Origin: Naegleria gruberi
Taxonomy: Eukaryota
Reading direction: 5' to 3' (one strand)
Assembly: GCA_000004985.1 (NCBI GenBank)
Contig: GG738849.1
Length of the DNA stretch: 64,000 bases
Below, one piece after another: positions 30,696-38,383 of the stretch; the stretch's first letter is position 1, and every line of letters begins with the position of its first letter. Made by a program: the position numbers and the translations under genes. The notes below the pieces were generated by a model, which had not been told where the DNA came from, did no database searches, and worked only from the letters and a program-made list of their open reading frames with translations.

Positions 30696-33600
30696 CTAAT
30701 TTTTTTTAATAGTTTTCTTGATAGTTGTAAGAGTGGAAAGTATGGAATCAAAACTTGGTCTAATTTCAGGTTCCGACCAGCACTTTTTCATCAACAATAC
30801 AAACAAGAAAATAACAGAGGAAAGTGCTTCTGGTTTGACACCTTCTTTTTCTGGGTTGTGATAAATACTTATCCATCTCTTACATTGATCTCTATTATTG
30901 AAAGGAATGAGTGGTCTAATTCCATGAATGATATATCTGGCTAGCTCTGTACCATTTCTATTGTTGAGTAATGAATAAATCTTCAAATCCTCTGATTGAT
31001 TGCTATCAGAATCGGTGAAATAGCTTGGATCTACACGTTTAGATATTGAGTATGGAACAGTTTCGAATAGAATTTCATACATGATAATTGCAAAACTGAA
31101 AACATCAATTTTTGCATCAATTGGAAGACCTTGCAATACTTCAGGGCTAGACCACAAGAGTGTACCAACATTGCCAACCAATTCATCAGATGTATTCTCC
31201 ATCGATGAAGTACTGAGACCAAAATCACAAACCTTACATTCACCATTCGATCCAATCAAGACATTACCTGGTTTCAAATCTCTGTGAATAATTGATGAGG
31301 AATGCAAATAGGCCATACCCTTACAAATATCCATCATGATTGAAACTTTTTGTTTGAATTTGAGCATAATCTTTCCCTTGACTGCATTGGAAATTAATCC
31401 ATCCAAGGAGCCACTTGGCATCCATTCAGTAACAAGGAATTTCTCTCTCTCGGTTACACTCACTCCAAAGAATGCTACTATATTAGGATGTCTGAGTTGA
31501 CTGAGCAAACTGGCCTCCTTTTCGAATGAGGTATCATCACTGCTGTATTTCACCTTCTTTATGGCAACCTCAACACCTCTCCATTCTCCTTTAAATACTA
31601 CACCTCCACCTCCTTCTGCAACTCTTGTCAGGAACTTTAAATCCTCCATATGAATAATATAACTAACATCCTTAAATGTGATTGCATCGGAATTAATAAA
31701 TTGAAAGTCCAACAATCTCTTTTGTAATTCAATTTCATTCTTTTCCTTTGTTTTCAACAATTCGAGGTTTCTTCTCAATTTCAAAACACCCTTTGCGATA
31801 CCAATAGTAACTCCAAAACCAATTAACAAGGATAAAATAGATGCTGAAATAACAATAATTGCAATGAAAAGGTGAGTATTGTCAACGTTGCAATATTCTC
31901 CCATATTGGTCCACAAGTGATCTATATCTGTAGGACAACTACAAACAGTTGAAACCTTCTTGGAGCTATCGAATAGACATGTTCCCTCTCCTCCACACAA
32001 AAATGGTACAGTTGCTGACAAGATGTTTTCTCCACATATTGGTGTTGAACATTGTTGAGAAAAACTCTCCTGAATACTTGTTGTAAATTCAAAAAATGCA
32101 ATGAAATACACATCACGATACAGTGATCTTCCAGGCGAGAAGGTATCTGTCATTCTCAACTCTTTTCCATCCAAAAAAGTAGTATTTGATGAAAATTTGT
32201 AAGAAATTAACATTATCAATCTATTGGATGAGTATGGCATGAGTTCAATAAAAACTCTATTAGATAACAAAGTGCTGCGTAAATGTGAATTTTTCTCTTC
32301 CATTCTGTCAATATCAATCATATAAATCATGGCTTTTGGTCTATCCAAATAGTACAAATGGCCATCATCTGAGAATTCTGCTGCATTTCCTATTTGGTAA
32401 GTGTGTCTGGTTACATTAATATTCAAAAGTCGTTTCTCCTTCAAATCAAATGAAAAGATCATACTACCAGGTCCAGGATCCAATGATACATTTCCAATAG
32501 TGCCACTATAAAAACCATATCCATAGAGTTTTCCATTGTAAACTCTTGCTCTATTGATACCCATTCTCGGTGGGCTTTCCGATAATGTATCATAGAATCG
32601 TGTACTATTTAAATTGATAATTGATGAGAAATTTACAGAAATAATCCCAATTCTCGAAAGAGAAGAGCTAGCATAGTCTAACTTGAACACGTAAAATGCA
32701 GCCATAATTCCACTCTGGATCTCATCATAGGAAATTCCATTAATTTTCAAATTGGCTCTACTACCAAATGCTGAAAACATTAAATAATTATCAATAACAC
32801 GTAGGTAATCAAAATATGGACAAGCTTCATAAACACATTCCAAATTCAAATCAAATAAATGATTAACAGTAAAACTAGGTTCATTATACTCATATTGGAA
32901 TACTGTAACAATAGGAGCATATTTAACTTGAGAATAGACTGGATTAGTTGTAAGATTCATTCTAGTTTCATATGTTGATCTTTCTCTGTGAATAATCAAG
33001 TAATTTTCATAGAGAGTAATTATATTCTTATACGTTTGTTTTCTACTCAATCTATAATCCAAGGATGATGATATAAAGGTATCATTGCCAATTTTAATTG
33101 ACATGAATACCAACTGTTTATACTCTATAGTTTCCCTAGGAAATGAAAAAAATATGACATTATCTTTCTGTATGAAACTTGGATCTCCCAATAATTCATT
33201 TGTAATATTTGTCTTGGCATGCCATGTTATACGTCCAGTGGAAATATCAAAAGTACCAACTACAAGTGTAGATGCCAAATTTGATGTCTTGGCAGCATCT
33301 AGAATACTCTCACATCCAATCTTTAAGTGATTCATTCTACTCATAAATGTTAAAAACACAATTTCATTACTATTCAATTTGTTAACTTGAAAAAGTATGG
33401 GTTGATCATTTCTCAAATAATATCTAAATGATCCCATTGCCGAAAGTTTATATTCATTATCATAAGCAGCCTGTTGATGATCACTATTTAATAAATTAGT
33501 TAATTCCACTTTTAATTTTGCTTTCAAATTATCCTCATGATGATGATGTAAATGATTGTTGATAGAATTAATATTGGCCGATAATGTACAATTTACAATA

Positions 33601-33800
33601 CCAAAACTTTCAAAAGTTAAAAGAATAAGTATGGTTGTGATGAAAATTATTAATAAATTAATTATCCTTCTTTTATGTTGATGTGTTGATGATAATAGAT
33701 TTAATATATTATTATTATTAATATTATTATTACTATTATTAATATTACTATTATTACTCCATGAATGTAGTAGTAATTGTTGCTGTTGTAGATTGGACAT
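30696..33800 (-). CDS. Receptor-like tyrosine-kinase-like (TKL) protein kinase. It has an N-terminal poly-N segment with a signal/anchor helix, an ectodomain of about 650 aa with an EGF-like Cys cluster, a TM helix and a cytoplasmic kinase domain.
   Basis: Hydrophobic helices 'IINLLIIFITTILILLTFESFGI' and 'LFIAIIVISASILSLLIGFGVTIGIA'; Cys cluster 'CSTPICGENILSATVPFLCGGEGTCLFDSSKKVSTVCSCP'; kinase motifs 'GGGGVVFKGEWRGVEVAIKKV', 'HRDLKPGNVLI', 'VCDFGLS', 'SPEVL'. Confidence 0.75.
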   Translation of the reverse strand: MSNLQQQQLLLHSWSNNSNINNSNNNINNNNILNLLSSTHQHKRRIINLLIIFITTILILLTFESFGIVNCTLSANINSINNHLHHHHEDNLKAKLKVELTNLLNSDHQQAAYDNEYKLSAMGSFRYYLRNDQPILFQVNKLNSNEIVFLTFMSRMNHLKIGCESILDAAKTSNLASTLVVGTFDISTGRITWHAKTNITNELLGDPSFIQKDNVIFFSFPRETIEYKQLVFMSIKIGNDTFISSSLDYRLSRKQTYKNIITLYENYLIIHRERSTYETRMNLTTNPVYSQVKYAPIVTVFQYEYNEPSFTVNHLFDLNLECVYEACPYFDYLRVIDNYLMFSAFGSRANLKINGISYDEIQSGIMAAFYVFKLDYASSSLSRIGIISVNFSSIINLNSTRFYDTLSESPPRMGINRARVYNGKLYGYGFYSGTIGNVSLDPGPGSMIFSFDLKEKRLLNINVTRHTYQIGNAAEFSDDGHLYYLDRPKAMIYMIDIDRMEEKNSHLRSTLLSNRVFIELMPYSSNRLIMLISYKFSSNTTFLDGKELRMTDTFSPGRSLYRDVYFIAFFEFTTSIQESFSQQCSTPICGENILSATVPFLCGGEGTCLFDSSKKVSTVCSCPTDIDHLWTNMGEYCNVDNTHLFIAIIVISASILSLLIGFGVTIGIAKGVLKLRRNLELLKTKEKNEIELQKRLLDFQFINSDAITFKDVSYIIHMEDLKFLTRVAEGGGGVVFKGEWRGVEVAIKKVKYSSDDTSFEKEASLLSQLRHPNIVAFFGVSVTEREKFLVTEWMPSGSLDGLISNAVKGKIMLKFKQKVSIMMDICKGMAYLHSSSIIHRDLKPGNVLIGSNGECKVCDFGLSTSSMENTSDELVGNVGTLLWSSPEVLQGLPIDAKIDVFSFAIIMYEILFETVPYSISKRVDPSYFTDSDSNQSEDLKIYSLLNNRNGTELARYIIHGIRPLIPFNNRDQCKRWISIYHNPEKEGVKPEALSSVIFLFVLLMKKCWSEPEIRPSFDSILSTLTTIKKTIKKN
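33655..33790 (-). repeat. (AAT/ATT)n-rich microsatellite-like tract encoding the poly-Asn N-terminus of the receptor kinase.
   Basis: 'attattattaatattattattactattattaatattactattattactcc' reads on the minus strand as 'NNSNINNSNNNINNNNILN'. Confidence 0.7.
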
Positions 33801-34084
33801 TTTCCTCGAATTTTAAATTCCAATCAAGTTAAAAATTATTATAGTAATCGGAGTGATAATGTTTAGATTCAATTTTTTACAGGTTGAATTGAAACTTTGA
33901 TAAAAGTATTGAGACAAGGTGGTATTAGATAACAAAATATACTTTATTGAAAAAGAAATCAAGTTAGCAAAAAGTTTGTGAGCCTGTTAGAAAATTAAAT
34001 CAGCTTGAATCGAATATATAGTTTGGATTGAAATACTCATTTTCTTTACTGTACACTTGTGTAAAATTTGGAATGTAGACGAGG

Positions 34085-35526
34085 TTACTTCGTCGTATGC
34101 TTAATGACCACCCAAATTACTGCTAATACTAAAACAAAAAGGGAAATTAATTTTAAAAGATCTGCATTTTTGGTTCCACTTACTTCATTCTTTGATGAAC
34201 GATTTTCAACAGTTGACTTGGGGTTTGTTCTGTCAAATTTTGAGTTTTTAGAATCTTCTTGCTTGGAGTTGCAGGATGAAGGTTTTTCTTGACTTGTCAA
34301 AATTTCATCTTCTGAAGTTGGTGAATCTATTTGATTGTATGGAGTTTGAGATTGTAATCTATTACGTGAACTGTTCAAATGGAAACCTCTTCCAATAACG
34401 AAACCACCACTCACACGACCAATTGAATGACCAGCACTGTATAAGGATTTTTGTTTGTTTTCAGGATTGTTTGCTGCAGTGGATGTAGACATACTCTTTG
34501 CTTGTTCATCCTTGATAATTTCAGATTCAACTTGCTCCAATGAGAGAGGAGGTAATAAATCTGAGGCAGTAACCATATGGGCAGGATTTGAAAGTGGAGA
34601 CAGCAACTTTGGCAAGGAAGGAGAGAATGAAGGAGAATTCAATGAAGGAGATGAAGGTGGAGAGAATGAAGTAAATCTGACTTGAGTTTTAAGTGCTTTG
34701 AGGACTGACTTTTTGATATTTTCCTTCTCGTTATACTTTTTAACACCTCTGTTGGCTTGATATTCAATTGTTGTTGTCTTGTCAATTTCTACACTCTGCA
34801 AAATCTTTCTAATTTTTCTCATTACAAATTGAATATGCTTTCTGTCAAGCATGCATCCGTTCCAAATTTGAATTGCATCATAAGGTCTTTCTACTACTCA
34901 ATACAATACCACTCACTTCATACTTGTCAGTAAAATGTTTTTCTCCTATAATTGCCAATACAATTTCATTCCATGTTTCCTTTCTCGTCTCCTTGTGATG
35001 TGTTTGAATTACCCAACGACCACCTTCAATATTCTAAAGTTTCATATTAAAAAATTGGCGAAATAATTGATATTAGAATATTGGAAAAGGATGATTGTTT
35101 TCAACTTACCCTTGGATCTTCGTAGAGTGGTTTTATGTGTGATTTGAACAATCTAATATTGAGATAGGAAGGCATCTTGTTGTATGATAGATTGATATTA
35201 TTCCAATATCTCCAAAACTCTTCAATAGTATCAAATGCTCCAACTTGTTTGATAGATTGTTCATAATCTTCAGGTGAGGCTCCTTGTTTGAAACCTTGAT
35301 CATAGTAAATAGTCCACTTATTTCTGAGAAGATGTGTTGAACTCAATGGAGATTGATCTCCTAAATTATCATCAACGAGATCCTCTTCATCTGTATCTTG
35401 TGCTTCATCATCACTATAAAGTAATGATGGTGAAGAGGAAGGCTGAAGTACATCAGGAGTGGTTATTCTTTGGAAGTGTTCATCAGAATACAATTGTGAA
35501 TCATCTTCCTCGTCATGTTCTAACAT
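34085..35526 (-). CDS. eIF4E-family cap-binding protein with a long Ser/Pro-rich C-terminal extension ending in a hydrophobic tail. It has a 76-nt intron at 35034..35109 and an apparent +1 frameshift near 34881-34883. It may be a pseudogene.
   Basis: 'RNKWTIYY...FDTIEEFWRYWNNI...LRLFKSHIKPLYEDPR|NIEGGRWVIQ...WNEIVLAIIGEKHFTDKYEVSGIVLSSRK' then, in frame +1, 'YDAIQIWNGCMLDRKHIQFVMRKIRKIL...IEYQANR'. This tracks human eIF4E ('QNRWALWFF...FDTVEDFWALYNHI...YSLFKDGIEPMWEDEKN...GGRWLITL...GESFDDYSDDVCGAVVNVRAKGDKIAIW...IGYQSHAD'). One extra T disrupts continuity. The C-terminus ends in 'LLKLISLFVLVLAVIWVVIKHTTK'. Confidence 0.6.
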
Positions 35527-36532
35527 TTCAAACCATGACTTTGGTGATGTTGGTGTTGATATTGTACTACCATTGAGTTTGGGAGAAGAAAGACCAACCT
35601 CAACTCTTTCCTTCAATTGTTTTTTCTATTAACATGATTATTAAATAACGGAACATTGGTAGATGAAATTATCAATTATTATTTTGTTTCATCAAATCGA
35701 ACCATAAAGGTCATGGATGGAATATCAATATCCACAAGAAGAAGCAGAATATAATATTCAATATCATACAAGAGTTTCAAATCAGCAAACTACTCCTACA
35801 ATACCGAAGGTGTAGTCATTTGCTTATTTTATTTGTATGTGTAATGATGATAGTGAAAATGAAGATAAAAAAAGGTGACTCGGTTTCAAACTCCTATTCA
35901 GTGTTGTTCCTAGCCAAAAAGTTCTGTTGCTGTTGTTGATGATATGAAGAAGAAGCAAAATTTGAAGAAGAAAACTCTCTATGTCTTGACTCGTTCTTTT
36001 TCTTTTTTATCGGATGAAAAAAGAAAACTACAAGAGTTTAATGATCAGCAATAAGAAAAACTTTGATTATTTTGTGTATTTTACTAAATTATAATCGAGA
36101 TTGTTGTAATCATCACCATTTTGTGTGGAAAAAGAGATATAATCCATTGTTATTGTAGTGAAGGGAATAATGACGAGAAAGTATATTGAGGGTAAATCAT
36201 GCTGAATAACATTACTCAACAACCAACTCACTCTACTATAACATTAAGACAGTCAGCTAAAACGATATACAGTGTAATGTGAGCACTTTACTGTAATAAG
36301 CTAGATACAGGAGCGAAAATGTCCATGACTATTTTAATCATGTCCTTGTTGAATCTTTTGTGGTGTAAAAAATAAACTTGGCCATGGTGTGTTGTAGGTG
36401 GTGACACAACCGTATTGAAATTTTGAAGATTACATTCTATTCCTATTAGCTTTTATTCGAAATGATCTTTCAATAATTTGAATTTTCAAATAAAATCCAA
36501 AATTCAATTAAAAAATCAAAAAATCAAAAAAA

Positions 36533-38383
36533 ATGCAAAGAATCACAGAAAGAACTAACTTTATCACCCGAGACATTGATGTAGTCGGAGATGTTGATGG
36601 TATGGTTCGTTTACTCCGAACAAGTGATGCACAAATGTTTTGTGGATATGAAGATTTTCCATCATGTTTTGATGAGGATTGTTTGGGTGCTTTGGAAAAA
36701 ATTTCCCTCCGAATGAAACTCTGTATGCAAGATAGATTAAATGGAGTGAGAGGAAGTGTTGTTATGAGTGGTTGTGGAACAAGTGGTAGAATTGCCTATT
36801 TTTGTTCAAAGAATTATAATTATTGTTTTAGAAAAGTATTTTCTGATAGGATTGATAATGATGAATGCTTTCAATTTATTATTGCTGGTGGAGTGAATGC
36901 TCTTGTTTCACCACAGGAAGCTGCTGAGGATAAACCAGATATTGGAGCAAGAGATTTGGTAAATGTCATTTCGAATACTAAAACTGAGAGAGGATTATTT
37001 ATTGGTATTACTTGTGGATTTTCTGCTGGTTATGTAGCTGGTCAAGTGATGCAATTGAGTGAGGATAAGAGTCTTGGTTTTGATTCTGTTTTATTTGGGT
37101 TTAATCCAAAGGAGTTGGCTAGGGATAGTCCAATTGAAGGATGGAGGGATGGAAATATTTCTTTCAAGGACGTAATTGAAAATGTGGAAAAGAACCAATC
37201 GAGAGAGGATGAATTTTTCTTTTTGAATCCAATTGTTGGACCAGAATCTATCACGGGTTCTACAAGAATGAAGGGTGGAAGTGCAACCAAATTTCTGCTT
37301 GATGTTGCCTTCTCTTCAGCCATTATGAGTATTCTGGATGAAAAGAAGAAGATTAGAGACAATATCATTCAAGTACTCTCTGGTTTTGAGCATACTGTGA
37401 GAAGTACATATGATTTTTCTAGTAATACCTTTTCAACAAATAGTCTCAAATCCATTACTCCAACCATTGAAATGGCAGCAAATAGTTTAAAGAATGGTAA
37501 CCTAGATGAAAGAAACGAGGATCAAATGGGCCATATTTATTACATTGGTGCTGAAAATGCTGGAATTTTGGGATTTATTGATTCTTCAGAGTGTGTACCA
37601 ACTTATGGTGCTCATCCTAATGATGTTAGAGGATTTATCAAAAAGGGATGGAACGATGTCTTTACCCATCACAATCAAGATATCAATAGTGATTTTGAAC
37701 AAAAGGGATCAAGTTTTGGCATTTCCTATGATTTCTTCAAACAAAATATTTTACATACAGTCAATTCTAGGGATTCGGTCTTCTTTTTGGCAATTGAACA
37801 ATGTATAGATGAAGAAACTCTTGCTGACATGAAGGAAATCCTAAATACGGTCAAGGAAAGAGGGGCCTCTGTCTGCTGGATTCTTGTAACCACAAAAGGT
37901 AATAATTCATTGTACCAGACCGTATCTGAATTGGGATCCCCAATATTGCACCATGCGCTTGACTCGCTTGGTCCAGTACCTTTCTTATATGGTTATGCAG
38001 AGCTTAGTATGAAACTTTTTTTGAATGCCATTACAACTGGTGCTCACGTATTGAAGGGTATGACATTTGGAAATAGAATGATCAATCTCAAAGTTAGTAA
38101 TAACAAACTATTTTATAGGGCTATTAATATTGTCAGTTCGATAATGAATGTAACTGAAGAGCTTGCAGAGAAATGTGTATTGAGAGCCATCTACAATGAT
38201 TCAACTCCAGAAAGTAACCTCGTCTCACTTCACATTAGTCATGCTATCAAGATGAATAAGGTAGTTCCTGTTGCCCTCTTGCTTGCTTCTTCAGGTGGTA
38301 CCTTGACTGTGGAACAAGCTAGAGAAATGTTAGCCAAAGACCCGGTGGTTAGGCAAGTAATTCTAAAGGAAAAGAAGAATTAA
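36533..38383 (+). CDS. Glucokinase regulatory protein (GCKR) homolog; double SIS-domain, MurQ-related protein.
   Basis: 'VVMSGCGTSGRIAYF', 'FNPKELARDSPIEGW', 'LNPIVGPESITGSTRMKGGSATKFLLD', 'GAHPNDVRGF' and 'TTGAHVLKGMTFGNRMINLKVSNNKLFYRAI' match human GCKR ('LSGGGTSGRMAFL', 'FNPVSMARNDPIEDW', 'LNPAIGPEGLSGSSRMKGGSATKILLE', 'GADFRDVRGF', 'STGAHVLLGKI...LRISNSKLFWRAL'). The length (616 aa) is the same as GCKR. Confidence 0.8.
   Translation: MQRITERTNFITRDIDVVGDVDGMVRLLRTSDAQMFCGYEDFPSCFDEDCLGALEKISLRMKLCMQDRLNGVRGSVVMSGCGTSGRIAYFCSKNYNYCFRKVFSDRIDNDECFQFIIAGGVNALVSPQEAAEDKPDIGARDLVNVISNTKTERGLFIGITCGFSAGYVAGQVMQLSEDKSLGFDSVLFGFNPKELARDSPIEGWRDGNISFKDVIENVEKNQSREDEFFFLNPIVGPESITGSTRMKGGSATKFLLDVAFSSAIMSILDEKKKIRDNIIQVLSGFEHTVRSTYDFSSNTFSTNSLKSITPTIEMAANSLKNGNLDERNEDQMGHIYYIGAENAGILGFIDSSECVPTYGAHPNDVRGFIKKGWNDVFTHHNQDINSDFEQKGSSFGISYDFFKQNILHTVNSRDSVFFLAIEQCIDEETLADMKEILNTVKERGASVCWILVTTKGNNSLYQTVSELGSPILHHALDSLGPVPFLYGYAELSMKLFLNAITTGAHVLKGMTFGNRMINLKVSNNKLFYRAINIVSSIMNVTEELAEKCVLRAIYNDSTPESNLVSLHISHAIKMNKVVPVALLLASSGGTLTVEQAREMLAKDPVVRQVILKEKKN

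What the first reader, a model, noticed from the sequence alone, without database searches (positions are those of the whole stretch)
34860..34900. eIF4E-family gene with a +1 frameshift inside the conserved core, plus an unusual tail-anchor-like C-terminus
Alignment by eye to human eIF4E is continuous through '...GEKHFTDKYEVSGIVLSSRK'. It then resumes as 'YDAIQIWNGCMLDRKH...IEYQANR' only after shifting frame by one nucleotide at 'acc tTa tga tgc' (forward 34881-34883). No intron can account for this, since there is no GT donor and the shift sits inside a conserved beta-strand. After the eIF4E fold the protein would continue about 200 aa through S/P-rich sequence and end in the hydrophobic segment 'LLKLISLFVLVLAVIWVVIKHTTK*'. 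An eIF4E is not expected to have this tail-anchor architecture.
Basis: partly seen in the sequence, partly recalled or inferred. Interest (0 to 1): 0.5.

Follow-up and report, generated by a model that had tools for sequence, protein, structure and literature searches.

The report
Frameshifted tail-anchored eIF4E gene, Naegleria
The window is Naegleria gruberi, and the gene is a conserved membrane-anchored relative of the cap-binding factor eIF4E whose reference sequence carries one extra T, most likely a sequence error or a very recent lab-strain lesion, which the public annotation hides with an invented intron and a false fusion to the neighbouring kinase.

Summary
On the minus strand the eIF4E domain reads to ACC TTA TGA (stop 34880-34878) and continues only in the +1 frame. 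One T of the doublet 34883-34882 is extra.

The organism is Naegleria gruberi NEG-M, not a dictyostelid. Five relatives read ...SSRKTYDAIQIW... without a shift: N. fowleri, N. lovaniensis, Willaertia magna, another Naegleria species, and an N. gruberi-complex metagenome contig with ACC TAT GAT.

Against that contig, the 90 codons after the shift show 32 synonymous and 0 non-synonymous differences. The downstream frame is therefore under strong purifying selection. The extra T is a consensus error or a very recent allele, not an old pseudogene. Nothing supports programmed frameshifting.

The reference protein XP_002681827.1 masks the shift with an invented 121-nt intron that deletes 40 core residues. 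It also splices past the membrane tail into the neighbouring kinase.

The C-terminal hydrophobic anchor is real and conserved. It recurs in eIF4E-domain proteins of Heterolobosea, Amoebozoa (including a dictyostelid) and a ciliate: 22 of the 30 closest cluster representatives have it. I found no description of such tail-anchored eIF4E proteins in the searchable literature. Read-level data could not be checked.

The parts
35805..35819 (-). Exon 1 (MTTPS)
   Evidence: Matches residues 1-5 of reference model P0273. Homologous to N. lovaniensis exon 1, MNSPSVLL, followed by an intron at the same position before KKQ.
35626..35804 (-). Intron 1 (179 nt, GTATTG...AATAG), phase 0
   Evidence: The intron position is conserved in N. 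lovaniensis (53 nt) and Willaertia (80 nt).
35110..35625 (-). Exon 2: acidic/Ser-rich N-terminal extension plus the first half of the eIF4E core (KKQLKERVE...KPLYEDPR)
   Evidence: The same ORF occurs on ENA contig L022, which is 97.4% identical.
35034..35109 (-). Intron 2 (76 nt, GTAAGT...TTTAG), phase 0
   Evidence: The position after EDP[KR] is conserved in L001, L002 and L023.
34884..35033 (-). Exon 3 before the shift (NIEGGRW...GIVLSSRKT)
   Evidence: Against L023: 21 synonymous and 3 non-synonymous differences in 50 codons.
34882..34883 (-). TT doublet, one T of which is extra relative to all relatives (ACC-T-TAT versus ACC TAT / ACA TAT). This is the +1 frameshift.
34878..34880 (-). Premature in-frame TGA created by the extra T
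34085..34882 (-). Exon 3 after the shift, in the +1 frame: YDAIQIWNGC... through the rest of the eIF4E core, the S/P-rich linker and the tail anchor, to TAA
   Evidence: In the first 90 codons there are 32 synonymous and 0 non-synonymous differences against L023.
34793..35328 (-). eIF4E (PF01652) domain. It spans intron 2 and the frameshift.
   Evidence: Pfam 4e-38, profile 2-150/158. The best solved relative is 4EHP, 2.5e-25. The model matches eIF4E/4EHP with TM-score (target-normalised) 0.73-0.79.
34160..34792 (-). Linker of about 210 residues, predicted disordered and Ser/Pro-rich, with conserved islands (TSFSPPSSPS, SPLSNPA.M, GFV[IV]GRGFHLNS)
   Evidence: Alignment invariants. pLDDT below 50 for residues 266-459.
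34103..34159 (-). C-terminal hydrophobic segment LLKLISLFVLVLAVIWVVI (candidate tail-anchor transmembrane helix), followed by KHTTK*
   Evidence: Conserved in N. fowleri, N. lovaniensis, Willaertia, Acrasis and P0124. Predicted as a helix over residues 459-486 with pLDDT 75-89.
34796..34916 (-). 121-nt 'intron' of reference model XP_002681827.1 (GTGAGT...TTGCAG). Judged an annotation artefact that masks the frameshift.
   Evidence: It removes 40 conserved codons and truncates the Pfam match to profile 2-103/158. Orthologs have no intron here.
33534..34183 (-). 650-nt 'intron' of the reference model. It skips the tail anchor, the stop codon, the intergenic DNA and the kinase N-terminus, fusing two genes. 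Judged an artefact.
   Evidence: The tail is conserved as coding sequence in relatives.
30696..33800 (-). Neighbouring receptor-like Ser/Thr kinase gene with its own ATG and N-terminal hydrophobic segment. It is not part of the eIF4E-like gene.

Best explanation
The locus (35819-34085, minus strand, three exons) is the N. gruberi ortholog of a conserved, tail-anchored eIF4E-family protein. The corrected protein is 492 aa.

The reference sequence carries one non-ancestral extra T in the doublet 34883-34882. This shifts the frame inside a core beta-hairpin and creates a TGA. Most likely it is an error of the draft consensus, or an indel carried by only one haplotype that the consensus happened to pick up, in a gene that is intact and functional in the organism. 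It is not an expression mechanism. Gene prediction then rescued an open frame by inventing a 121-nt GT-AG intron, and read on through a 650-nt false intron into the next gene. The result is the public chimera 'serine/threonine protein kinase' XP_002681827.1.

Inferred function of the real protein, not shown here:
- A cytosol-facing eIF4E/4EHP-like cap-binding domain. Both cap-stacking positions are Tyr. E103, R157, W166 and the dorsal W73 are retained.
- A disordered linker of about 210 residues holds this domain on an organelle membrane through a C-terminal transmembrane helix, inserted post-translationally.
- The protein would thus place capped mRNAs or 4E-binding partners at that membrane.
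For: Shown:
- The neighbouring gene is 100% identical to N. gruberi NAEGRDRAFT_78308, and all exons of P0273 map exactly to the window.
- The IF4E domain is continuous only across the shift.
- N. fowleri, N. lovaniensis, W. magna, P0124/P0274 and L023 all read SSRKTYDAIQIW with no shift. At the DNA level they have ACA TAT or ACC TAT where the window has ACC T TAT.
- Synteny and the three-exon structure are conserved.
- After the shift, the window differs from L023 by 32 synonymous and 0 non-synonymous changes in 90 codons. At neutrality roughly 120 non-synonymous differences would be expected (pS 0.568 x 213.7 sites), so any inactivation covers less than about 2.5% of the divergence path (plus inference).
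- The post-shift segment of N. gruberi is no more diverged from Willaertia (73%) than those of N. fowleri and N. lovaniensis (67-68%).
- The reference model's intron truncates the IF4E match from profile 2-150 (131 bits) to 2-103 (97.5 bits).
- The tail is conserved and predicted helical.
- 22 of the 30 closest cluster representatives carry a C-terminal hydrophobic anchor, against 13 of the next 116 (Fisher p=5e-11). Named members come from Acrasis, Thecamoeba, Mastigella, Pelomyxa, Protostelium, Sappinia, Cavostelium, Paramoeba, Polysphondylium and the ciliate Muranothrix.
Against: - No reads, traces, ESTs or RNA-seq of NEG-M could be inspected, so a consensus error cannot be separated from a genuine allele.
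- The only near-identical independent contig, L022 (97.4% identity), ends at about window 35014 and does not reach the site.
- Consensus indels are uncommon in a Sanger assembly of about 8x coverage. That coverage figure is from my own knowledge, not checked here.
- Membrane insertion and cap binding are inferred from sequence only.
- The Naegleria hydrophobic core is short, 14-19 residues.
- W102 is Tyr in the Naegleria and Willaertia members and Leu in the Acrasis-like metagenome member P0127, so cap affinity may be weak or lost.
- The structure model is of low to medium confidence: core pLDDT 50-74 from an alignment of 4 sequences.
Confidence: 0.55

Rival explanations
1. The extra T is real in strain NEG-M: a very recent loss-of-function frameshift, fixed or heterozygous, in a clonal laboratory strain long kept in axenic culture. 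NEG-M would then make only a truncated, non-functional eIF4E fragment of 228 residues from this allele.
For: - The sequence as given has the shift, and the reference annotation was built on the same base.
- Naegleria is described as mainly a heterozygous diploid with ploidy changes and loss of heterozygosity in culture (PMC9928731), so a null allele could be tolerated.
- There are no secondary lesions, which fits a very recent event.
Against: - The gene is under very strong purifying selection (0 non-synonymous changes in 90 codons) and is conserved across the genus and beyond. Null alleles should therefore be rare.
- No second defect is present.
- This cannot be told apart from a sequencing error without reads.
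Confidence: 0.37
2. Programmed +1 ribosomal frameshifting at UUA-UGA-U, as in antizyme (UCC-UGA-U) or RF2. The ribosome would skip the U of the stop codon and read GAU, giving ...RKTL-DAIQIW..., the same length as in the orthologs.
For: The shift falls exactly on an in-frame UGA followed by U. Reading +1 at the stop restores a full-length protein aligned without a gap. The downstream frame is under selection.
Against: - The site is not conserved. All five relatives, including one from the N. gruberi complex, encode the protein in a single frame.
- By inspection, UUA cannot re-pair with UAU in the +1 frame.
- There is no stable RNA structure 3' of the site: z = 0.17, and 108 of 200 shuffles fold at least as well.
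- The product would replace the Tyr found in every Naegleria and Willaertia relative with Leu.
Confidence: 0.03
3. The reference annotation is right. Positions 34916-34796 are a genuine, newly formed 121-nt intron, and the gene is a natural fusion of an eIF4E-like protein with a kinase.
For: - Both boundaries look canonical (GTGAGT...TTTTGCAG), and the length (3n+1) restores the frame.
- The public model XP_002681827.1 exists.
Against: - The 'intron' encodes 40 residues that are identical or conserved in all relatives. The 29 codons of its post-shift part lie within the 90 codons that show no non-synonymous change.
- Orthologs have no intron there.
- Removing it takes out core strands, including R157 and W166, and truncates the Pfam match.
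- The 650-nt second intron is 3.6 to 8.6 times longer than the gene's two real introns (179 and 76 nt) and deletes a conserved tail, a stop codon and the kinase's own start.
- In N. lovaniensis and Willaertia the downstream neighbour is a separate HAD-hydrolase gene, not a kinase.
Confidence: 0.02

Closest known systems
eIF4E type 2 / 4EHP (human EIF4E2; PDB 2jgb, 5nvk)
   Same: - It is the best solved-structure relative by sequence: E=2.5e-25, aligned without a gap across the frameshift site.
- It is a top structural match, with TM-score (target-normalised) 0.73-0.79.
- Tyr stands at the W56-equivalent cap-stacking position, as in 4EHP Tyr78.
- The E103, R157 and W166 equivalents and the dorsal Trp (W73) are retained.
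   Different: - The W43 equivalent stays Trp, whereas class II eIF4Es have Tyr, Phe or Leu there.
- The second stacking residue (W102, 4EHP W124) is Tyr in Naegleria and Willaertia.
- The K162 equivalent is Ala.
- There is an acidic N-terminal extension of about 95 residues, and a C-terminal extension of about 230 residues ending in a hydrophobic anchor. 4EHP is a soluble protein of 245 residues (length from my own knowledge).
Canonical eIF4E-1 (human EIF4E; PDB 1ipb, 1ej1)
   Same: Same Pfam family and fold. The GGRW, FW(73), ED(103) and IW(166) motifs are conserved.
   Different: About 27-30% identity. Both cap-sandwich Trp residues are replaced by Tyr. The protein has a tail anchor and a long linker. 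Nothing here suggests it is the general initiation factor.
Tail-anchored proteins (a class defined by topology, for example Sec61beta, cytochrome b5, Fis1)
   Same: - A single hydrophobic helix lies 5 residues from the C-terminus in the window protein, and 0-19 residues from it across the subfamily.
- There is no N-terminal signal sequence and no other hydrophobic segment: the maximum hydropathy elsewhere is 0.4-0.8 in the three annotated orthologs.
- The C-terminal flank is basic (KHTTK).
   Different: The cargo domain is a cap-binding fold, which I did not find described for any tail-anchored protein. The target membrane is unknown. The hydrophobic core is short in Naegleria.
Antizyme / RF2-type programmed +1 frameshift sites
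   Same: A shift of +1 located at an in-frame UGA followed by U.
   Different: No conservation of the site, no slippery P-site codon and no stimulatory RNA structure. This is a resemblance of position only.

Membership tests
eIF4E family (Pfam PF01652) | Sequence match to the family profile above the curated threshold, over the whole domain | tested here: met
   131.1 bits against a cut-off of 28.7, profile 2-150/158, one stretch across the corrected shift.
eIF4E family (Pfam PF01652) | Cupped-hand alpha/beta fold (curved beta-sheet backed by helices) | tested here: met
   The AF2 core shows the expected alternation of strands and helices. Foldseek against PDB gives eIF4E/4EHP at E about 1e-13, TM-score (target-normalised) 0.73-0.79 over about 175 columns. 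Caveat: core pLDDT is only 50-74.
eIF4E family (Pfam PF01652) | Aromatic cap sandwich (human W56 and W102) plus E103 | tested here: inconclusive
   W56 is replaced by Tyr in all Heterolobosea. W102 is Tyr in Naegleria and Willaertia, Leu in P0127 and Trp in Acrasis. E103 is invariant. Aromatic character is kept but Trp is lost. Cap binding was not measured.
eIF4E family (Pfam PF01652) | Phosphate-contacting R157 and K162, and W166 | tested here: inconclusive
   R157 and W166 are invariant. The K162 position is Ala or Ser.
eIF4E family (Pfam PF01652) | Binding of m7G cap | not testable with these tools
   Needs an m7GTP pull-down or fluorescence titration.
Class II eIF4E (4EHP), by the Joshi et al. 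2005 residue criteria (from my own knowledge) | W43 replaced by Tyr/Phe/Leu and W56 replaced by Tyr/Phe | tested here: not met
   The W43 equivalent is Trp (NKW), while W56 is Tyr. Only one of the two criteria is met, although 4EHP is the closest solved sequence.
Tail-anchored membrane protein | A single hydrophobic helix within about 40 residues of the C-terminus, and no signal peptide or other transmembrane segment | tested here: met
   Hydropathy 2.96 over 19 residues, ending 5 residues from the C-terminus. Hydropathy elsewhere is at most 0.84 in the orthologs. Predicted helix 459-486.
Tail-anchored membrane protein | Post-translational membrane insertion with the N-terminal domain in the cytosol | not testable with these tools
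   Needs localisation or fractionation experiments.
Programmed +1 ribosomal frameshift | The shift site is conserved in orthologs | tested here: not met
   Five relatives are in a single frame.
Programmed +1 ribosomal frameshift | Stimulatory elements: a slow A-site codon, a shift-prone P-site codon and a 3' RNA structure | tested here: not met
   A UGA in the A-site is present. UUA to UAU re-pairing is poor (by inspection). The fold 3' of the site has z=0.17.
Spliceosomal intron (reference model's 34916-34796) | GT-AG boundaries | tested here: met
   GTGAGT...TTGCAG.
Spliceosomal intron (reference model's 34916-34796) | The sequence is free of coding constraint, and the intron is present in orthologs or supported by transcripts | tested here: not met
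   The segment encodes 40 conserved residues. Its post-shift part has no non-synonymous change. There is no intron in L001, L002 or L023. Transcripts were not available.
Decayed (old) pseudogene | Several disabling mutations, or relaxed dN/dS | tested here: not met
   There is a single lesion. dN/dS is 0 after the shift and 0.011 before it. The N. gruberi branch is not accelerated.

The most novel reading that the evidence does not exclude
The frameshift is trivial, but the gene belongs to an apparently undescribed and widespread protist subfamily of tail-anchored eIF4E/4EHP-like proteins, found in Heterolobosea, many Amoebozoa including dictyostelids, and at least one ciliate. These proteins would tether a cap-binding or 4E-partner-binding domain to an organelle membrane through a long disordered linker. 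That would be a dedicated device for membrane-localised translation or repression. Some members (Acrasis type) carry a canonical 4E-binding motif, YDRExL-phi, immediately before the anchor, which hints at cis or trans regulation at the membrane. Separately, a newly evolved +1 programmed frameshift at UUA-UGA-U is not strictly excluded (about 0.03).
Probability: 0.4. Interest if true: 0.7.

Novelty: new variant of a known kind. Interest (0 to 1): 0.42.

Why it matters
There are two practical consequences for annotation and comparative genomics.
- The public N. gruberi protein XP_002681827.1 (EFC49083.1, UniProt D2V2M3) is a chimera of two unrelated genes. It contains a damaged eIF4E domain and no membrane tail.
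- Comparative studies built on the published proteome can therefore miscount this gene. The Naegleria pangenome, for example, reports 599 genes absent from N. gruberi (PMC9928731).

Biologically, eIF4E-family proteins are treated as soluble factors. A conserved subfamily with a C-terminal membrane anchor, present in several protist supergroups, would give a directly testable handle on how capped mRNAs are positioned or silenced at organelle surfaces. The family includes genetically tractable dictyostelids.

Tried and rejected
- Exact look-up of the neighbouring GKRP-like protein found no contig. The organism was identified by homology search instead.
- The first homology search with the full conceptual protein returned only three orthologs and missed the N. 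gruberi fragments, probably because low-complexity S/P words swamped the candidate list. The exhaustive HMMER search recovered them.
- A last homology search with the clean 120-residue core found only P0125. No other public protein crosses the site at 90% identity or more.
- ENA contig L022, 97.4% identical to NEG-M, was fetched as an independent check of the T, but it ends at about 35014, roughly 130 nt short.
- The metagenome scan gave only distant relatives (29-51% identity). It was useful for the architecture but not for the T.
- An intron explanation was considered in detail. Donors GTGAGT (34916) and GTAAGT (34183) exist, but using them deletes conserved coding sequence. Splicing at 34183 to the nearby TTTAG would leave only 'Y*' (by inspection).
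- Programmed frameshifting: no 3' structure and no conservation of the site.
- RNA editing was rejected on prior knowledge. The only editing I know of in Heterolobosea is mitochondrial C-to-U, not nuclear deletion.
- Literature searches for tail-anchored or transmembrane eIF4E found nothing relevant.
- The N. gruberi genome paper is not in the held library.
Full report
**1. What is in the sequence**

The gene lies on the minus strand. After a GTAAGT...TTTAG intron (35109-35034), exon 3 starts at 35033. It reads NIEGGRWVIQTHHKETRKETWNEIVLAIIGEKHFTDKYEVSGIVLSSRKTL and then meets TGA at 34880-34878. The same frame has 20 stops over the rest of the exon.

From TAT at 34882-34880 the +1 frame is open for 265 codons. 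It reads YDAIQIWNGCMLDRK... and ends ...LLKLISLFVLVLAVIWVVIKHTTK* with TAA at 34087-34085.

With the two frames joined, Pfam IF4E matches as a single stretch covering profile positions 2-150 of 158 (E=4e-38, 131 bits). The alignment to human 4EHP runs without a gap over GIVLSSRKTYDAIQIWN / GAVVSVRFQEDIISIWN.

An AlphaFold model is weak overall (mean pLDDT 41.7; core 50-74). It places strands at residues 212-220 and 224-230 on either side of the shift. Its core superposes on eIF4E and 4EHP structures with TM-score (target-normalised) 0.73-0.79.

**2. The organism and the public annotation**

The adjacent gene at 36533-38383 is 100% identical to NAEGRDRAFT_78308 of Naegleria gruberi. The window is therefore N. 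gruberi NEG-M, a heterolobosean and not a dictyostelid.

An exact-cluster look-up showed that the exon-2 ORF clusters with XP_002681827.1 / EFC49083.1, named 'serine/threonine protein kinase', 1365 aa. Mapping that protein onto the window gives these exons:
- 35819-35805
- 35625-35110
- 35033-34917
- 34795-34184
- 33533-30699

The model removes 34916-34796 as an 'intron' (121 nt = 3n+1, GTGAGT...TTGCAG). This restores the frame at the cost of 40 core residues, VSGIVLSSRKTYDAIQIWNGCMLDRKHIQFVMRKIRKILQ. It then splices from GTAAGT at 34183 over 650 nt into the middle of the next gene. That second splice skips the hydrophobic tail, the stop codon, the intergenic DNA and the kinase's own ATG (33800) and N-terminal hydrophobic segment.

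In this model the IF4E match shrinks to profile 2-103 (97.5 bits). The intron built on it is a prediction artefact.

**3. Relatives**

Orthologs in N. fowleri, N. lovaniensis and Willaertia magna are 53-64% identical overall. All read ...VLSSRKTYDAIQIWNGCMLDR... in a single frame, and all end in a homologous hydrophobic tail.

N. lovaniensis keeps the GKRP-like neighbour. N. lovaniensis and Willaertia both share the three-exon structure: a tiny exon 1, an intron before KKQ, an intron after EDP[KR], and an uninterrupted exon 3 running to the tail.

At the DNA level they have AGA AAA ACA TAT GAY where the window has AGA AAG ACC T TAT GAT.

The exhaustive HMMER search added three items:
- P0124/P0274, from another Naegleria species, which is continuous and has the same tail.
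- P0125, on ENA metagenome contig L023.
- P0126, which is identical to the window's exon-2 ORF and lies on ENA contig L022.

L023 is about 80% identical to the window in DNA yet almost identical in protein. It reads AGA AAA ACC TAT GAT. The extra base is therefore a T.

**4. How old is the lesion?**

Between the window and L023, the 50 codons before the shift differ by 21 synonymous and 3 non-synonymous changes. The 90 codons after it differ by 32 synonymous and 0 non-synonymous changes.

If the post-shift frame had been neutral over the whole path, about 0.568 x 213.7, or roughly 120, non-synonymous differences would be expected. Observing none puts the 95% Poisson upper bound at 3. Any period of neutrality is thus limited to about 2.5% of the path (inference).

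The post-shift segment of N. gruberi is also no further from Willaertia (73% identity) than those of N. fowleri and N. lovaniensis are (67-68%). There is a single lesion and no second defect. An old pseudogene is excluded.

**5. Programmed frameshift?**

The shift coincides with UGA-U, which superficially resembles the antizyme site. Several observations argue against a programmed event:
- The site is absent from all relatives.
- The P-site codon UUA cannot re-pair in the +1 frame (by inspection).
- The 125 nt downstream fold no better than shuffled sequence (z=0.17).

I give this about 3%.

**6. Error or real allele?**

This is the one question I could not settle. No NEG-M reads, traces or transcripts are reachable with these tools. 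The only near-identical independent contig (L022, 97.4%) stops about 130 nt short of the site. No other public protein crosses the site.

Naegleria is described as a largely heterozygous diploid with culture-associated ploidy changes (PMC9928731), so a tolerated null allele is plausible. Against that, very strong purifying selection makes null alleles rarer. My split is:
- about 55%: consensus error, or an indel on one haplotype, in a functional gene
- about 37%: genuine recent lesion in NEG-M
- about 5%: frameshifting or a real intron, combined

The first two together come to about 92%. In either of those cases it is not an expression mechanism.

**7. The tail anchor**

The tail is part of the protein and is conserved: LKLISLF..AVIW in Naegleria, YLKLFLIFTAAVIL in Willaertia and IRFALVFLSAAML in Acrasis. 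It is the only confidently predicted element outside the core (helix 459-486, pLDDT 75-89). No other hydrophobic segment exists in the protein.

The GTAAGT at 34183 followed by TTTAG is intron-like. Splicing there would leave only 'Y*' and would delete a conserved segment, and orthologs have no intron there (by inspection).

The architecture is not peculiar to Naegleria. Of the 146 best 50%-identity cluster representatives, other than the four Naegleria and Willaertia sequences, 35 have a 17-residue window with Kyte-Doolittle hydropathy of at least 2.0 within the last 45 residues. These are concentrated among the closest relatives: 22 of the top 30, against 13 of the next 116 (Fisher p=5e-11).

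Named members are:
- Acrasis kona KAL0478552.1
- Thecamoeba quadrilineata (two)
- Mastigella eilhardi
- Pelomyxa schiedti KAH3760108.1
- Protostelium nocturnum
- Sappinia pedata
- Cavostelium apophysatum
- Paramoeba atlantica
- Polysphondylium violaceum KAF2077506.1
- the ciliate Muranothrix gubernata

Eight metagenome or metatranscriptome contigs show complete ORFs with the same layout and a stop codon.

One caveat applies. The search profile included the tail, which could slightly favour anchored hits. However, the scoring stretches lie in the domain.

**8. Residue-level reading (human numbering)**

| Position | State in this subfamily |
|---|---|
| W43 | kept |
| W46 | Tyr |
| W56 | Tyr |
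| W73 | kept (Leu in Acrasis) |
| W102 | Tyr in Naegleria and Willaertia; Leu in P0127; Trp in Acrasis and most anchored relatives |
| E103, R157, W166 | invariant |
| K162 | Ala or Ser |

The closest solved sequence is 4EHP, but the class II residue rule (W43 substituted) is not met.

I infer a cap-binding or partner-binding domain of 4EHP-like, probably modest, affinity. It would face the cytosol and be held on a membrane by a disordered linker of about 210 residues. The linker carries conserved linear motifs: TSFSPPSSPS, SPLSNPAxM and GFV[IV]GRGFHLNS. A conserved N-terminal motif, LYSDEHFQRITTPD, is also present. Which membrane is involved, and whether the protein activates or represses translation, is unknown.

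**9. Literature**

Searches of the held library for eIF4E together with tail-anchored, transmembrane, Naegleria or Heterolobosea found no description of such proteins. The same holds for term searches (transmembrane, membrane, tail-anchor, hydrophobic) in the main protist, alveolate and fungal eIF4E surveys. Absence from this library does not prove novelty.

**10. Verdict**

The frameshift is real in the sequence but ordinary in meaning. It is a single non-ancestral T in an otherwise intact and strongly constrained gene, compounded by a misleading public gene model.

The part worth following up is the conserved tail-anchored eIF4E subfamily. It is a new variant of a known kind and can be tested in tractable amoebae.

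Noticed in passing
window 30696-35819 (minus strand): The public N. gruberi model XP_002681827.1 / EFC49083.1 / D2V2M3 ('serine/threonine protein kinase', 1365 aa) is a chimera of the eIF4E-like gene and the downstream receptor-like kinase. It is joined by two invented introns, 34916-34796 and 34183-33534.
   Followed up: yes
window 33534-33800: The kinase ORF has its own ATG at 33800, an Asn-rich N-terminus and a hydrophobic segment (RRIINLLIIFITTILILLTF), all of which the fused reference model discards. A second hydrophobic segment lies before the kinase domain, so it looks like a receptor-type kinase.
   Followed up: partly
P0129 (Acrasis kona) and P0127, C-termini; L002 (Willaertia) tail: The membrane anchor is directly preceded by YDREVWI or YDREALI, a perfect canonical 4E-binding motif (YxxxxL-phi, compare eIF4G YDREFLL). 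Willaertia has DYLKLFLIF, and Naegleria has [LV]LKLISLF without the Tyr. This may be a juxtamembrane 4E-binding motif, or it may be coincidence.
   Followed up: no
window 34160-34792 and 35330-35625 (linker and N-terminal extension): There are short invariant islands inside otherwise fast-evolving, predicted-disordered regions: SWFEM, LYSDEHFQRITTPD, TSFSPPSSPS, SPLSNPAxM and GFV[IV]GRGFHLNS. They look like conserved linear motifs, such as docking or phosphorylation sites.
   Followed up: no
L023 (ENA ERZ4903137 k141_1559042), near the codons for SPL[SK]NPAHM: This relative contig has its own single-base frame change in an A-run (CTTAAAAAATCC versus the window's CTTTCAAATCC). The frame continues as NPAHMMTAGD... 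It is probably metagenome assembly noise, and it shows that single-base indels in such data are common.
   Followed up: partly
L022 (ENA ERZ929261, run ERR1078381, PRJEB11402): This environmental metagenome contig is 97.4% identical to N. gruberi NEG-M over 1296 nt and has an identical exon-2 ORF. A close wild relative of NEG-M is therefore present in that sample, and its reads could settle the extra-T question.
   Followed up: partly
P0156 (Pelomyxa schiedti KAH3760108.1, 1170 aa): It is named 'digestive organ expansion factor', yet it carries an eIF4E domain at residues 259-473 and a C-terminal hydrophobic anchor. This may be another fused or misnamed gene model.
   Followed up: no
window 34132-34183 (minus strand): An intron-like signal (GTAAGT...polypyrimidine...TTTAG) lies inside the sequence that encodes the tail. 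The pyrimidine tract is simply the codons for the Leu/Phe/Val-rich helix. This is a trap for gene predictors.
   Followed up: yes
window 36533-38383 (plus strand): A glucokinase-regulatory-protein-like / MurNAc-6-P etherase-like SIS-domain gene. It is syntenic with the eIF4E-like gene in N. lovaniensis. Among its best-scoring hits are many bacterial homologs (Sumerlaeota, Phycisphaerae).
   Followed up: no
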